In this document: positions 32,175 to 54,441 of the stretch, piece after piece
Layout: each line of letters begins with the position of its first letter
Position numbering within the stretch: the stretch's first letter is position 1
DNA from: the human T2T-CHM13v2.0 reference genome, Homo sapiens
Strand: one strand, 5' to 3'
NCBI RefSeq assembly: GCF_009914755.1
Contig: NC_060947.1
Length of the DNA stretch: 64,000 nt
Notes under the pieces: generated by a model
Told to the model about the DNA's origin: nothing
Database searches by the model: none
What the model saw: only the letters and a program-made list of their open reading frames with translations
Made by a program: the position numbers and the translations under genes

Positions 32175-33230
<1,056 letters not shown>

Positions 33231-49975: not shown

Positions 49976-50471
49976 TAATTAATTAATTAACCTTAGCATA
50001 CTGTAACATTTTCATTTTATAAACTTTATTCATAACACATCTTAAAATACGAACGTTGTACAGATGTACAAAAATACATTTTTCTTTATATCCTTATTCT
50101 ATAAGCTTTTCTCCATTAAAACAATATTTTTTAACCTTTTAAACATTTTTGCTAAAACTAAGACACAAACACACACATTAGATCAGGCATACACAGTCAG
50201 GATCATCTATATCACAGTCTTCCACCACCACATCTTGTTCCCCACTGGAAGATCTTCAGGTGCAATAAACATGAAGCTGTCATCTCCTGTGATAATAATG
50301 CTTTCTTCTGGAATATGTCCTGCAGGAACTGCCTGAGGTTGTTTTACAATTAACTTTTTTCTATATAAGTAGAAGGAGTATACTCTAAAGTAATGCTAAA
50401 AAGTATAGCATAGTAAATATATAAACCAGTAACACAGTCATTTACTATCTTGTTTTTGTTCAAACATTTAA

Positions 50472-50753
<282 letters not shown>

Positions 50754-51900
50754 ATTATTGAGCATTTTTTTATGGGACAAGCACCGTGCAAGGTGCTGGG
50801 ACATAAGAGTAATTACAACAAAGTCCCTCAAGGAGCTCATAGTCTAATGGTAAACCACAGAGCTAACAGAGGCACACAGTGGTAAATGACTTACCCAATG
50901 AGGTGGAAATAGCTAGGTATGTGGAAACCTGGGACTAGAGCTGGAGAGAGGGCACGGTAGAACTTACTGTAAGTAAAACCCCTTTGATTGAAGAGCTGGG
51001 CTGCATACAGAAACACATTACAAAATCTGCTTGCAAAAACCTTCAGTTTCCAGTTTTCCCCACAATTGAATTTATGTCTCACAATGAATTAATCTATCAT
51101 TTGATAGCATTTCTATACTTGGCCCCAAAGCCTTGGAGCATGCCATCAATCTGTTGAGACACAGCAATTTAGTAGACAGCTTAAAATCAAGAAGTATCTG
51201 ACTCCAATTTCAGCATTAAGAACCATATTAAAACACTTCAGTTAAATCAATGAATGTAAATGTACAGCACATTTATGATACTTCTACATGTAGCAGTTTG
51301 GAAAAACTCTCCTCTAACCCTCATCCAGAGTATTCTAATAAGTGATGGATACCAAAGAAATTAGATAATTTGTCACTTTCCAATATATACACTATTTTGG
51401 CTGTACAAGGGCAAAAAGTGTCACTTGGAAATAGTGGATAAGTAATCTAAGCTTTACACAGATATATACAAAGACATCACATTTGGATCCAATATACAAC
51501 AGTAACTGCAAACATGAACCAGTGTAAGGCAATTTCTTTTGTGATATATGACATAATCCCTGAAGGAAAGGGTAGAGCCTGCAAACAACCGTCCATTTCA
51601 GGCCTGACTGTCATTTTCATGACACCCTTTGTGACGAAGCTATTTCAGGAGGCAAGATGTCTATTCCGATGACAAAAAGCAGTGCATAATTATACATGGA
51701 GTTGTTTTCAAATGTGGAAACCAGAATTATTCAGGAATCTAAGTCGTGAACTACTCAAAAATAGTACTGGTGGTAATGCTGCTACTAACCGAAAACAAGA
51801 GCACTCCATGTCCATTGCTGTAAGAATCAAATGTGATGTGTAATTCTCCGCAGAGGATGTTCCCCCAAAACCTCAACAATACCTGAATTCTCAAATGTTA

Positions 51901-52749
51901 TCAGTTGCTCATGTCAAGCAATTCTTCACCTTGCTGAGGATTTTCTTCTTCTTCAGGGTGTTCTGGATGTCTGCTCTCAGATGAAGTCCCAGTGCTCTCA
52001 GATGAAGTCCCGGCACTCTCAGACGTGTAGTTAGCTTCGTAATCCTTCTTCGATAGACACAAATAGGCGTCAACAGGTCCGTCGTTGTTACTTAAACGTA
52101 ATGAGAAAGAGTCTTCAGAAATTGGAATTTCCAGTGTGATTTCTACTGGCAATTTAGCGACAAAAACGGTCTGTTCCTGGAAGCGTTCCAAGTTGTGAAT
52201 GTCTTCAAGCGTCACATATGCTAGTTTTCCCAATTCTTTGTCATTTGTTAACTCACACAGTTGCTGAGAACAATCTTCAATTAACTTATCCAAGGCATCT
52301 TCTGTTGCTGATAATTTGGAAACTTCCTCCTCTAGCTTCTTTTCTTCGGGTGTTGCTCCAGAATTAAAATCAGGTCCAATCCACTGAATATGGTTCTTAG
52401 ATGTTTTTTCAATTAGTTTGACTCCTTGTAAGACACTGATGATGTCATATATTCTTCGTCTGTGCACTGCCAGTTTTGCTGCTACCTGGCTTAAGCTAAG
52501 AACACCTCCAGGAGCCGATTTGAGAATATCTATAAATTTTCGCGTTGTACAAGCCAGTGATGTCTTATTATGAGGTTTCATATTTACAGTTTCTCTTTTA
52601 GACTCAGGTTGTACATCATCTTTGGAATTAATCCTTATTGTTGATGGCAGTGGGCACTCCGCATTGGTGGCGTCTCGGCGGCGAACCGTCTCCTCCGCCG
52701 GGTTAATGGGCAGGTCAGTCAACTTTCCTGCAGGCTGCTGCTGACTCAT
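51901..52749 (-). CDS. Intact E2F6-like ORF, 282 aa (winged-helix DNA-binding domain, leucine zipper, marked box); candidate retrogene
   Basis: MSQQQPA...TRKFIDILKSAPGG...RRIYDIISVLQG...SKNHIQWIG...LAYVT...GPVDAYLC...EELLDMSN*. Colinear start-to-stop with recalled E2F6 (281 aa). gcagccATG context. No stops or frameshifts. Expression not shown. Confidence 0.75.
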   Translation of the reverse strand: MSQQQPAGKLTDLPINPAEETVRRRDATNAECPLPSTIRINSKDDVQPESKRETVNMKPHNKTSLACTTRKFIDILKSAPGGVLSLSQVAAKLAVHRRRIYDIISVLQGVKLIEKTSKNHIQWIGPDFNSGATPEEKKLEEEVSKLSATEDALDKLIEDCSQQLCELTNDKELGKLAYVTLEDIHNLERFQEQTVFVAKLPVEITLEIPISEDSFSLRLSNNDGPVDAYLCLSKKDYEANYTSESAGTSSESTGTSSESRHPEHPEEEENPQQGEELLDMSN

Positions 52750-53030
52750 GGCTGCTCAGCAGGACGGCCTGCGGCCCTCACACCCCACACCCCGCAAGCT
52801 CTCCCGCCTTCTCCAGCTCGAGCACCGCTCCCAACTCACCAACTTCTGAATACTCAGCACGAAGCGGGTCCAAGGCCTGCTCGGAGGTGCAGTTCGACTA
52901 GGCCTTCTGGTCCGCCAGCAAACGCGCCACAGCCCCACGCGCCACGGCCCAGCCCGGGAGCTCCGGATGCAGACAGGAAGTGGGCAGGGCGACACGAGCG
53001 GCTCTCCGGTGGTCTCGCCCAACCGTCTGC
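52660..53030 (-). promoter_or_regulatory. CpG-rich 5' leader / candidate promoter of the E2F6 retrocopy
   Basis: About 30 CpGs in ~370 bp by eye. ETS motif (caggaagt, 52974-52981) and E2F6-type TCCCGC (52802-52807). Confidence 0.5.
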
Positions 53031-53301
53031 CTACATGTGGAGTGCTGACAATTGTTACCAATTATGTACTGCACAGAAATGCATTTGTTATACTTTTATA
53101 CCACAAGCAACGCAGTAGCTTCGTTTGCAGCAGCATCACGACAAACACGTCCGTAATTCATTGTGCTACCACGACACTAGGTGATAGGAAGTTTTCTGCA
53201 CCGTTATAGTCTATGGGACCACCATCATATATAAAGTCCGTGGTTAAATGAACGGTCATTAATGCGATGCATGGCCGTATGTATATAGTTTTATACACTT
53301 T

Positions 53302-54441
<1,140 letters not shown>

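What the first reader, a model, noticed from the sequence alone, without database searches (positions are those of the whole stretch)
51901..52749. E2F6 retrocopy with a fully intact but highly diverged ORF: candidate hidden retrogene
Seen: an uninterrupted 282-codon ORF from the parental ATG to the parental stop. Against recalled human E2F6 it is only about 55-60% identical, yet has no nonsense change. About six indels all preserve frame: -2 codons after RRR, single-codon losses near KPH, PDFN and IPIS, and a 21-nt tandem duplication at 51972-52023 with a further codon loss. Many substitutions are conservative (I/V/L/M, D/E, K/R), and core motifs survive (TRKF, SAPGG, RRxYD, SKNHIxWIG, zipper leucines, LAYVT, GPxDxYLC). 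The GAPDH copy nearby is wrecked by frameshift, stop and deletion. Established: E2F6 is a DP-dimerising repressor in PRC1.6 that silences germline genes. Inference: the frame has been kept by selection while the protein evolved fast, as expected of a germline or early-embryo retrogene that could act as a variant or antagonist of E2F6.
Basis: partly seen in the sequence, partly recalled or inferred. Interest (0 to 1): 0.9.

Follow-up and report, generated by a model that had tools for sequence, protein, structure and literature searches.

The report
Fast-evolving X-linked E2F6 retrogene candidate
A copy of the gene-silencing factor E2F6 on the human X chromosome, catalogued as a dead pseudogene, has kept its full reading frame in monkeys and humans while its protein changed unusually fast, so it is probably an overlooked primate gene.

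Summary
Window 51901-52749 (minus strand) holds an intact 282-codon ORF inside a full-length processed copy of E2F6 mRNA. It is 57% identical to the parent protein, and all 5 CDS indels are in frame against 1 of 14 in the UTRs.

- **Other species:** Colinear predicted proteins of 277-289 aa exist in macaque, two colobines, tamarin and one unnamed source. They form one clade whose branching matches the primate tree.
- **Neutral decay rejected:** At the 3'UTR-calibrated distance, neutral decay predicts 82% identity and a 6e-4 chance of an open frame. The 57% observed needs a distance at which no simulated frame stayed open.
- **Constraint:** Replacements avoided deeply conserved sites on the stem (p=8e-5) and kept hydrophobic character. 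In the crown they concentrate in the marked box, while the DNA-binding domain and coiled coil change least.
- **Parallel with TFDP3:** TFDP3 is the accepted X-linked cancer-testis retrogene of the E2F partner DP1 and lies 2.9 Mb away. It has the same simian range, similar age and similar crown rates.
- **Expression:** One TCGA table lists E2F6P4 as 20-fold up in tumours, alongside CT-X genes.

Verdict: probably an unrecognised simian retrogene. Its function in humans, its translation and its mechanism are untested.

The parts
51901..52749 (-). Intact ORF of 282 codons plus TGA (P0001), an E2F6 paralogue
52375..52566 (-). Winged-helix DNA-binding domain (aa 62-125) with RRxYD intact
   Evidence: Pfam E2F_TDP scores 84.9 bits, against 82-94 bits for true E2F6. 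1cf7_A E2F4 match at 6e-14. Invariant columns.
52216..52335 (-). Coiled-coil / leucine-zipper part of the CC-MB domain (aa 139-178), the slowest-evolving part
   Evidence: 0.23 changes per site on the stem and 0.40 in the crown. 2aze_B E2F1 CC-MB match at 4e-13.
52057..52215 (-). Marked box (aa 179-231), the fastest-evolving part within simians
   Evidence: 1.04 changes per site in the crown, against 0.40-0.55 for the N-terminus, DBD and coiled coil. Heterogeneity p=7e-4. CC-MB Pfam score is 75-89 bits, against 106-122 in true E2F6.
51972..52023 (-). 21-nt (7-codon) tandem repeat, 2.5 copies. Copy number differs among primates: human has one unit fewer than the monkeys.
52750..53006 (-). Copy of the parental 5'UTR. 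GC 68%, CpG o/e 0.74. The nearest upstream ATG lies 287 nt from the start codon, beyond this segment. Start context is GCCATGA.
53007..53306 (-). Non-parental upstream segment, CpG o/e 1.06, with TATA-like motifs at 53100 and 53233. Candidate recruited promoter (inference).
   Evidence: No homology to the parental upstream region; an Alu lies at 53335-53481.
50756..51900 (-). Copy of the parental 3'UTR, 83.1% identical to the parent, CpG o/e 0.19
50475..50755 (+). Alu inserted directly after AATAA of the parental poly(A) signal, antisense to the retrocopy. The last bases of the copied mRNA follow it at about 50440-50474.
   Evidence: coordinates approximate

Best explanation
E2F6P4 is most likely an unrecognised protein-coding retrogene, not a dead pseudogene.

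Origin: a full-length E2F6 mRNA was retroposed onto the X chromosome before the catarrhine-platyrrhine split. The copy went through a burst of amino-acid change on the stem lineage that spared deeply conserved E2F positions. Its reading frame has since been kept open by selection in Old World monkeys, New World monkeys and the human lineage, while the protein kept changing at or above the neutral rate.

Protein: it retains a near-normal winged-helix DNA-binding domain and the coiled coil used for DP dimerisation. Like E2F6, it has no extension beyond the marked box and acidic tail. Its marked box has diverged most.

Inferred mechanism (not shown): the gene is expressed from a CpG-rich 5' end in germline-type and tumour contexts. 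The protein pairs with a DP subunit, either TFDP1 or the neighbouring X-linked retrogene TFDP3. It occupies E2F sites without reproducing the marked-box-dependent silencing of E2F6, and so acts as a variant or competitor of E2F6 at germline genes.

Rough odds: frame maintained by selection in simians 0.85; still functional in humans 0.55; competitor mechanism 0.3.
For: 1. Indels. All 5 CDS indels are in frame against 1 of 14 UTR indels, p=5e-4. The differences among the six X-clade proteins are all in frame, with no scrambled stretch.

2. Neutral simulation from the parental CDS. At d=0.097, half the 3'UTR K2P of 0.194, it gives 82% identity and P(open frame)=6e-4. The observed 57% needs d of about 0.30, where 0 of 1500 simulations lacked a stop and P(no frameshift) is about 2e-6.

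3. Relative rate. Against the consensus of 8 non-human eutherian E2F6 proteins over 255 columns, 102 differences are X-only and 4 are parent-only (chi2=90.6, p=2e-21). The replaced fraction of 0.424 exceeded all 400 neutral simulations at d=0.097, 0.15 and 0.194.

4. CDS versus UTR. Without CpG columns, the CDS diverges 0.223 against 0.160 for the 3'UTR (p=7e-4).

5. Orthologues. Six protein clusters were found: human, Macaca, Semnopithecus, Nasalis, one unnamed source and Saguinus. They form a 100/100 clade with the species-tree topology. P(all crown branches stay open under neutrality) is 6e-12 with the self-consistent null. With assumed crown tree lengths of 0.10-0.20 it is 3e-4 to 1e-7.

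6. Constraint. Stem changes hit 10 of 67 fish-to-mammal-invariant sites against 78 of 188 others, p=8e-5. Hydrophobic residues stay hydrophobic in 21 of 25 stem changes (p=0.003) and 28 of 40 crown changes (p=0.025). Crown rates differ by domain, p=7e-4. Pfam scores stay far above the cut-offs in 6 of 6 proteins.

7. Benchmark. TFDP3, an accepted coding CT-X retrogene, has the same simian range and a comparable age. Its 3'UTR identity is 82.5% counting gaps, or 86.8% with K2P 0.146; its dS is 0.25. Its crown branch lengths are similar. Its avoidance of conserved sites is weaker, p=0.1 on the stem and 0.24 in the crown.

8. Transcription. The TCGA-HNSC table lists E2F6P4 at log2FC 4.33, padj 3.7e-11 (504 tumours, 44 normals). 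CT45A1 (4.85), PAGE2 (4.74), SSX1 (3.09) and MAGEA genes (6.6-7.9) are in the same table (PMC12519442 appendix; passages seen).

9. CpG. CpG o/e is 0.64 in the CDS, 0.74 in the 5'UTR copy and 1.06 in the 300 bp upstream. It is 0.19 in the 3'UTR copy and 0.16-0.26 in the flanks. The CDS has 14 new CpGs and 14 lost.

10. Mechanism lead. An E2F6 with a foreign marked box binds its target promoter but cannot silence, and the DBD can be swapped with that of E2F1 (PMC8195999; abstract and passages). TFDP3 binds E2F1-6 (PMC8564135; passages).
Against: - Pairwise dN/dS is not below 1: NG86 0.78 (bootstrap 0.55-1.14), LWL85 0.86, ML 1.04, YN00 1.28. There is no bulk purifying selection.
- Within the crown, changes per site look Poisson-like (mean 0.627, variance 0.595). 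100 of 255 sites are unchanged, which is close to what a Poisson process with that mean would leave (the Poisson figure is my arithmetic).
- Crown avoidance of conserved sites is weak (Fisher 0.087, binomial 0.04). Crown replacements are not significantly conservative by BLOSUM62 (p=0.18).
- The human terminal branch has 15 changes over 255 sites. It is compatible with neutrality, with P(frame stays open)=0.09.
- The parental AATAAA is cut by an Alu, and no AATAAA or ATTAAA remains in the 3'UTR copy.
- All monkey proteins are gene predictions from author-made annotations. RefSeq-annotated primates list only true E2F6. The tamarin protein lacks the last 11 residues. I could not read any non-human DNA.
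- There is no evidence of translation. Expression rests on one table in one paper.
- Saying that the X-lineage omega exceeds 1 assumes that silent divergence is split roughly evenly between the two lineages. If all of it lay on the X branch, omega would be about 0.9.
Confidence: 0.62

Rival explanations
1. Former retrogene now decaying. The copy was a working gene in early simians, and perhaps still is in monkeys. It has lost its function in the hominoid or human lineage, and the human frame is open only because no disabling mutation has yet occurred.
For: - The human terminal branch shows 15 changes in 255 sites, about the neutral expectation, with P(frame still open)=0.09.
- Protein-level constraint in the crown is weak.
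- The parental poly(A) signal is interrupted by an Alu, and no canonical signal is left in the 3'UTR copy.
- Human has lost one 7-codon repeat unit.
- RefSeq calls it a pseudogene (hub annotation).
Against: - The locus is transcribed and strongly up-regulated in tumours.
- The CpG-rich 5' end is retained.
- On the path from the simian ancestor to human, P(open frame) is 1e-3 under neutrality.
- The human protein cluster stands for 5 sequences on 146 contigs. This is consistent with a widely intact frame, although I could not list the members.
- TFDP3, an accepted human gene, looks no more constrained by the same tests.
Confidence: 0.2
2. Ordinary neutral processed pseudogene whose frame has stayed open by chance.
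For: It is annotated as a pseudogene. Pairwise dN/dS is near 1. The human genome holds thousands of retrocopies, so a few open frames are expected by chance among the young ones.
Against: - The copy is old: 3'UTR K2P is 0.194 and dS is 0.25-0.36.
- P(open frame) is 6e-4 or less for the human lineage alone. For the independent monkey branches it is 3e-4 to 6e-12.
- All 5 CDS indels are in frame.
- Stem substitutions avoid conserved sites (p=8e-5).
- Rates differ among domains (p=7e-4).
- Hydrophobic character is retained.
- The protein diverged more than even the full UTR distance allows: 0 of 400 simulations reached it.
- The GAPDH copy in the same window is broken.
Confidence: 0.03
3. The locus matters only as non-coding DNA or RNA, as an enhancer or lncRNA, and the open frame is incidental.
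For: RefSeq lists a functional-element enhancer at 51764-52963 that overlaps the CDS and 5'UTR (hub annotation). The 5' end is CpG-rich. Transcripts are detected in tumours.
Against: A non-coding function does not explain several results:
- indels restricted to multiples of three;
- absence of stops across six lineages;
- avoidance of conserved protein positions;
- retention of hydrophobic residues.
Enhancer activity and coding function are also not mutually exclusive.
Confidence: 0.05

Closest known systems
E2F6 (parent gene, G000 contig C2; PRC1.6 subunit)
   Same: The two are colinear from the start codon to the stop codon. Both have E2F_TDP and E2F_CC-MB domains, RRxYD, heptad leucines and an acidic C-terminal tail. 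Neither has a C-terminal extension beyond the E2F6 end.
   Different: - 57% identity only.
- About 25 times more replacements than the parent in the same time (102 against 4).
- Intronless and X-linked.
- The CC-MB Pfam score is lower by 30-40 bits, and the marked box is the fastest-changing part. E2F6 needs its own marked box to silence germline genes (PMC8195999).
- E2F6 itself is almost invariant among eutherians, with tip branches of 0-0.055 against a path of about 0.63 to the human X copy.
TFDP3 (CT30/HCA661/DP4), X-linked retrogene of TFDP1
   Same: - Intronless copy of the other subunit of the E2F-DP dimer, on the same chromosome 2.9 Mb away.
- Present in catarrhines and platyrrhines.
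- Comparable age: dS 0.25, and 3'UTR identity 82.5% counting gaps.
- Similar crown branch lengths: New World monkey stem 0.20 against 0.21, human tip 0.055 against 0.062.
- In Saguinus both proteins lie on a contig of the same length, 148,490,209 bases.
- TFDP3 is a cancer-testis gene that binds E2F1-6 and dampens E2F activity (PMC8564135).
   Different: - TFDP3 is an accepted protein-coding gene with protein-level evidence in print. E2F6P4 is annotated as a pseudogene and has none.
- The E2F6 copy has twice the dN (0.28-0.32 against 0.14) and a much longer stem branch (0.44 against 0.17).
- Whether the two proteins bind each other is untested.
Cancer-testis genes of the X chromosome (CT-X: MAGEA, CT45, PAGE, SSX and others)
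   Same: - X-linked, about 100 kb from a CT45 family member (hub annotation).
- Fast protein evolution. PMC1890293, of which I saw the title, abstract start and passages, reports rapid evolution of CT-X genes.
- Strongly up-regulated in tumours against normal tissue in the same table as CT-X genes.
   Different: Testis-restricted expression, promoter demethylation and immunogenicity have not been shown for E2F6P4. It is a single-copy retrogene of a transcription factor, not a member of an amplified CT family.

Membership tests
E2F transcription factor family | E2F/DP winged-helix DNA-binding domain (PF02319) above the gathering score | tested here: met
   84.9 bits against a cut-off of 25.7. 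All 6 X-clade proteins score 75.7-85.4 bits; true E2F6 scores 82.1-93.6.
E2F transcription factor family | RRxYD DNA-recognition motif | tested here: met
   R98, R99, Y101 and D102 are invariant in 20 of 20 aligned X-clade and E2F6 sequences. They align to the same motif of E2F4 in 1cf7_A. That these residues contact DNA is recalled, not tested.
E2F transcription factor family | Coiled-coil plus marked-box domain (PF16421) for DP heterodimerisation | tested here: met
   83.3 bits against a cut-off of 33.9. All 6 X-clade proteins score 74.8-89.2 bits; true E2F6 scores 106-122.
E2F6 subclass (PRC1.6-type repressor) | Ends shortly after the marked box, with no C-terminal transactivation or pocket-protein-binding region | tested here: met
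   Colinear with the 281-aa parent from the start codon to the stop codon. That other E2Fs carry such a region is recalled.
E2F6 subclass (PRC1.6-type repressor) | An E2F6-type marked box able to silence germline genes (aa 180-240 in PMC8195999) | tested here: inconclusive
   The CC-MB region is 55% identical to the parent. The marked box has the highest crown rate, 1.04 changes per site. Whether it still supports silencing cannot be told from sequence.
Processed retrocopy | Intronless and colinear with the spliced mRNA across all exon junctions, UTRs included | tested here: met
   Seven parental exons map head to tail onto window 53006-50756.
Processed retrocopy | Poly(A) tail and target-site duplications | tested here: inconclusive
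   An Alu sits in the poly(A) signal, and only an A-rich remnant follows it. I did not search for target-site duplications.
Functional retrogene | Open frame conserved in several species beyond the neutral expectation | tested here: met
   Six lineages have colinear proteins of 277-289 aa. Neutral P is 3e-4 to 6e-12. Caveat: these are predicted proteins, and I saw no DNA.
Functional retrogene | dN/dS clearly below 1 | tested here: not met
   Pairwise 0.78-1.28. The benchmark TFDP3 gives 0.54-0.58. Selection shows here as frame maintenance, site avoidance and faster-than-neutral change instead.
Functional retrogene | Transcription | tested here: met
   The TCGA-HNSC table lists log2FC 4.33 at padj 3.7e-11 (PMC12519442 appendix). 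This is one dataset, and no normal-tissue profile was seen.
Functional retrogene | Translation (Ribo-seq or peptides) | not testable with these tools
   No such data are available here.
Cancer-testis X gene | Expression restricted to testis or germline among normal tissues, and reactivated in tumours | tested here: inconclusive
   Tumour up-regulation was seen. Testis expression was not examined. CpG retention at the 5' end is indirect.

The most novel reading that the evidence does not exclude
Both subunits of the E2F6-DP1 repressor dimer were retro-duplicated onto Xq26 in the stem simian lineage, giving E2F6P4 and TFDP3. The two have since co-evolved under positive selection as a dedicated germline and tumour heterodimer. 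That dimer would occupy or sequester E2F6/PRC1.6 target sites without silencing them. It would be a primate-specific switch, or the product of a genetic conflict, that relieves repression of germline genes. E2F6P4 would then be the missing natural partner that explains why TFDP3 behaves as a poor DNA-binding partner with canonical E2Fs.
Probability: 0.15. Interest if true: 0.88.

Novelty: new member of a known kind. Interest (0 to 1): 0.75.

Why it matters
E2F6 starts the lifelong silencing of germline genes in the embryo (PMC8195999). A primate-only, X-linked paralogue with a preserved DNA-binding and dimerisation module but a rapidly changing marked box would be a natural modifier of that pathway in germ cells and tumours. 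It would also be a plausible cancer-testis antigen.

The case would add a human gene to the catalogue. It would give TFDP3 a candidate cognate partner. It would offer a clean example of both subunits of a dimer being retro-duplicated to the X chromosome at about the same time. It also shows that an annotated pseudogene with dN/dS near 1 can still be under selection, and that frame-based and site-based tests can reveal this.

Tried and rejected
- **Other human E2F6 copies as nucleotide outgroups.** The four C22 copies are 99% identical to the parent, so too young. The C17 copy has no DNA similarity. Synonymous changes could therefore not be polarised, and the X-lineage omega rests on an assumed split of silent divergence.
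- **Complex prediction.** I submitted the E2F6P4 protein (aa 58-235) with TFDP3 (aa 100-340), both as alignments. Binding stays untested.
- **More clade members.** A second word-based search with the New World monkey-like protein gave the same 6 clusters. The exhaustive representative search gave one X-clade representative, with all other hits at 58% identity or less. Nothing was found in tarsiers, lemurs or non-primates, but intronless copies are usually not annotated as proteins, so absence is uninformative.
- **CpG decay as the cause of the excess CDS divergence.** Rejected, because the excess remains without CpG columns.
- **A 5' extension of the copy into the parental promoter.** The only hit was an Alu-to-Alu match.
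- **Motif scan of 52600-53500.** I looked for E2F sites, TCCCGC and the E-box CACGTG. Only one GCGGGA (at 52807) and two TATA-like motifs were found, which is not informative.
- **Literature.** 'E2F6P4' and 'ENSG00000231513' each found 1 paper, the same TCGA table. 'E2F6P' found 2. 'E2F6'+'retrogene' found 5. I opened one of these, PMC11369213, and E2F6 occurs there only in the reference list; the other four I saw only as search listings. 'E2F6'+'processed pseudogene' found 5. Of these I opened PMC8266391, where the pseudogene term is a reference-list hit; PMC11369213 is in this set too. 'E2F6-like' found 0. None describes this locus as a gene. Supplementary tables of retrogene catalogues were not searchable and may list it.
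- **A script error of mine.** One search gave 86% identity and omega 0.37 for the second DP1-like ORF because it used spurious alignment pieces.
Full report
**1. What is there**

Window 51901-52749 on the minus strand is an uninterrupted ORF of 282 codons. It carries the two E2F domains: E2F_TDP at aa 62-125 (3e-24) and E2F_CC-MB at aa 139-231 (1e-23). The window's own genome could be searched. The parent E2F6 lies on contig C2, and I fetched 48 kb around it.

The retrocopy aligns exon by exon to seven parental exons, from the 5'UTR (window 53006) to the poly(A) signal (about 50756). It is a full-length processed copy. An Alu, antisense to the copy, sits directly after AATAA of the parental signal, and the last bases of the mRNA follow it. 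Upstream of 53006 there is no parental homology, and an Alu lies at 53335-53481.

**2.

- Protein identity to the parent is 158 of 276 aligned residues, 57.2%.
- The CDS has 5 indel events, all multiples of three: four deletions (6, 3, 3 and 3 nt) and a net 18-nt gain. The two UTRs have 14 events, of which one is a multiple of three (Fisher p=5e-4).
- The 21-nt repeat lies at 51972-52023 with 2.5 copies.
- The GAPDH copy in the same window is broken. Its longest open stretch is 172 codons, it spans several frames, and about 240 nt are missing.

**3. The divergence pattern is not that of a decaying copy**

| Region | Identity to parent | K2P |
|---|---|---|
| 3'UTR (1150 nt) | 83.1% | 0.194 |
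| CDS | 76.2% | 0.292 |

The difference is not due to CpG decay. Without CpG columns the CDS diverges 0.223 and the 3'UTR 0.160 (p=7e-4).

Pairwise dN is 0.27-0.32 and dS is 0.25-0.36, so omega is 0.78 (NG86; bootstrap 0.55-1.14), 0.86, 1.04 or 1.28 depending on the method. The parent contributes almost nothing to dN. Against the consensus of 8 non-human eutherian E2F6 proteins over 255 columns, 102 differences are private to the X copy and 4 to the parent (p=2e-21).

The replaced fraction on the X lineage is 0.424. This was reached by 0 of 400 neutral simulations at d=0.097, 0.15 or 0.194, and it needs d of about 0.30 on that lineage alone. Unless nearly all silent change lies on the X branch, the protein evolved faster than neutral. 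My estimate for the X-lineage omega is roughly 2, with a lower bound near 0.9. This rests on an assumed even split of silent change, because no nucleotide outgroup was available: the C22 copies are 99% identical to the parent and the C17 copy has no DNA similarity.

**4. Neutral survival of the frame**

I simulated from the parental CDS with a transition bias and CpG hypermutability, and took the indel rate from the UTRs. At d=0.097 this gives 82% protein identity and P(open frame)=6e-4. At d=0.30, the distance that reproduces 57% identity, 0 of 1500 runs lacked a stop and P(no frameshift) is about 2e-6.

**5. Other primates**

A search of 5.8 billion proteins found five further clusters that are closer to this ORF than to E2F6:

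| Source | Length (aa) | Identity to human ORF |
|---|---|---|
| Macaca fascicularis | 289 | 86% |
| Semnopithecus | 288 | 81% |
| Nasalis | 287 | 81% |
| unnamed source | 287 | 65% |
| Saguinus | 277 | 62% |

True E2F6 proteins score 52-55%. A second search from the New World monkey side and an exhaustive representative search added no further member.

The six proteins form a clade with 100/100 support. Its topology is that of the primate tree, and it attaches inside an unresolved eutherian E2F6 polytomy. Branch lengths are 0.44 for the stem, 0.13 for the catarrhine stem, 0.21 for the New World monkey stem and 0.062 for the human tip. E2F6 tips are 0-0.055.

The six are colinear. They differ by one 7-residue repeat unit, a few single-residue gaps and the last 11 residues of the tamarin protein. 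No scrambled stretch suggests a hidden frameshift.

Under neutrality, the chance that all ten crown branches stay open is 6e-12 if branch lengths are taken from the observed replacements. It is 3e-4 to 1e-7 for assumed crown tree lengths of 0.10-0.20. The human tip alone gives 0.09.

Caveats: these are gene predictions from author-made annotations, RefSeq-annotated primates list only true E2F6, and I could not read any non-human DNA.

**6. Protein-level constraint**

Parsimony on 255 ungapped columns gives 88 stem and 160 crown changes.

- On the stem, 10 of 67 fish-to-mammal-invariant sites were hit against 78 of 188 others (p=8e-5).
- In the crown the figures are 25 of 67 against 94 of 188 (p=0.087; binomial on changes 0.04).
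- Crown rates differ by domain (p=7e-4): coiled coil 0.40, DBD 0.53, N-terminus 0.55, C-terminus 0.73, marked box 1.04 changes per site. Stem rates do not differ (p=0.68).
- Hydrophobic residues were replaced by hydrophobic ones in 21 of 25 stem changes (expected 0.56, p=0.003) and in 28 of 40 crown changes (expected 0.54, p=0.025).
- Stem replacements are more conservative than mutation predicts (p=0.029). Crown ones are not (p=0.18).
- The Pfam DBD score is nearly that of true E2F6 (76-85 against 82-94 bits). The CC-MB score is 30-40 bits lower.

Against constraint: crown changes per site are Poisson-like, with mean 0.627 and variance 0.595.

**7. A calibrated comparison, TFDP3**

A DP-family scan of the genome found an intronless 405-aa ORF at C23:131.54 Mb, 2.9 Mb from the window. 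It is human TFDP3 by name (100% identity).

- Its orthologues cover the same range: gibbon 86%, Old World monkeys 85%, New World monkeys 67-70%, DP-1 76%.
- Against TFDP1 it shows 76.5% protein identity over 353 codons, dN 0.14, dS 0.25 and omega 0.54-0.58. The 3'UTR is 82.5% identical counting gaps, or 86.8% with K2P 0.146. The age is therefore comparable, with the E2F6 copy perhaps somewhat older.
- Its tree branches are: stem 0.17, catarrhine stem 0.064, human tip 0.055, New World monkey stem 0.20.
- The same site-avoidance test gives p=0.1 on the stem and 0.24 in the crown, weaker than for the E2F6 copy.

By these measures E2F6P4 looks no more decayed than an accepted coding gene.

According to a review (PMC8564135; abstract and passages), TFDP3 is a single-exon cancer-testis gene at Xq26.2 found in primates. 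It binds E2F1-6, forms complexes that are poor at DNA binding, and lowers E2F-driven transcription.

**8. Expression and promoter hints**

E2F6P4 is ENSG00000231513. In a TCGA head-and-neck comparison of 504 tumours and 44 normals it is listed with log2FC 4.33 and padj 3.7e-11. The same table lists CT45A1 (4.85), CT45A10 (9.26), PAGE2 (4.74), SSX1 (3.09) and the MAGEA genes (6.6-7.9) (PMC12519442 appendix; passages only, first 300,000 characters held). At 76-83% identity to E2F6, cross-mapping is unlikely; this is my inference.

CpG o/e is 1.06 in the 300 bp upstream, 0.74 in the 5'UTR copy and 0.64 in the CDS. It is 0.19 in the 3'UTR copy and 0.16-0.26 in the flanks. In the CDS, 14 CpGs are new and 14 were lost. 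I read this as a sign of low germline methylation at the 5' end (inference).

The nearest upstream ATG is 287 nt from the start codon, and the start context is GCCATGA. Against a well-formed gene: the 3'UTR copy holds no AATAAA or ATTAAA.

**9. Mechanism**

Shown: the frame has been maintained; the DBD and coiled coil are the best-kept parts; the marked box changes fastest.

From print (PMC8195999; abstract and passages): E2F6 needs its own marked box (aa 180-240) to silence germline genes. A chimera with the E2F4 marked box binds the promoter but does not repress. The DBD can be swapped with that of E2F1.

Inferred: the X protein pairs with a DP subunit, binds E2F sites and does not reproduce E2F6 silencing. 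It would therefore act as a variant or competitor in germline-type cells.

**10. Novelty and verdict**

None of my eight literature searches found this locus described as a gene. Supplementary catalogues could not be searched. It is best filed as a new member of a known kind, a CT-X-like retrogene of an E2F-family subunit that parallels TFDP3.

The main residual doubts are whether the human copy is still functional and whether the monkey proteins reflect truly intact DNA.

The divergence times and genome-wide primate divergences behind my rough omega estimates are recalled, not computed here.

Noticed in passing
L018:1282-2511 (minus strand), G000 C23 about 36.56 Mb: A second X-linked intronless DP1-like ORF of 409 aa is intact. 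It is 94% identical to DP-1 and 95% identical to a Trachypithecus 'Dp-1-like' protein of the same length, with which it shares derived residues. Against TFDP1 it gives dN 0.029, dS 0.11-0.12 and omega 0.25 over 344 codons. It may be a further catarrhine DP retrogene.
   Followed up: partly
L015, G000 C2 about 11483136-11484660: The parental E2F6 intron between exons 4 and 5 has AT-AC ends with an ATATCCTTT 5' splice site, so it is U12-type. The retrocopy joins these two exons precisely.
   Followed up: no
L002-L005, G000 C22 (four places between 18.97 and 21.68 Mb): Four E2F6 retrocopies are 99% identical to the parental mRNA over positions 481-2270. They lack mRNA positions 406-480, and each has one in-frame TGA. 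They look like a young copy multiplied by segmental duplication.
   Followed up: partly
L006, G000 C17 about 36.44 Mb: An E2F-like stretch is 39% identical at the protein level to the X ORF and has two stops. It has no DNA similarity to E2F6 mRNA, so it is an older or different E2F-family relic.
   Followed up: no
window 32177-33204: GAPDHP67 has a longest open stretch of 172 codons and a reading spread over several frames. It has an internal gap of about 240 nt relative to other GAPDH copies and is 71-84% identical to the 77 other GAPDH-like matches in the genome.
   Followed up: partly
window 50475-50755: An Alu inserted exactly into the copied poly(A) signal turns AATAAA into AATAAT. Any transcript of the retrocopy must end elsewhere.
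   Followed up: partly
window 53007-53306: A 300-bp non-parental segment upstream of the retrocopy has CpG o/e 1.06 at only 42% GC, with TATA-like motifs at 53100 and 53233. It is bounded by an Alu at 53335-53481.
   Followed up: partly
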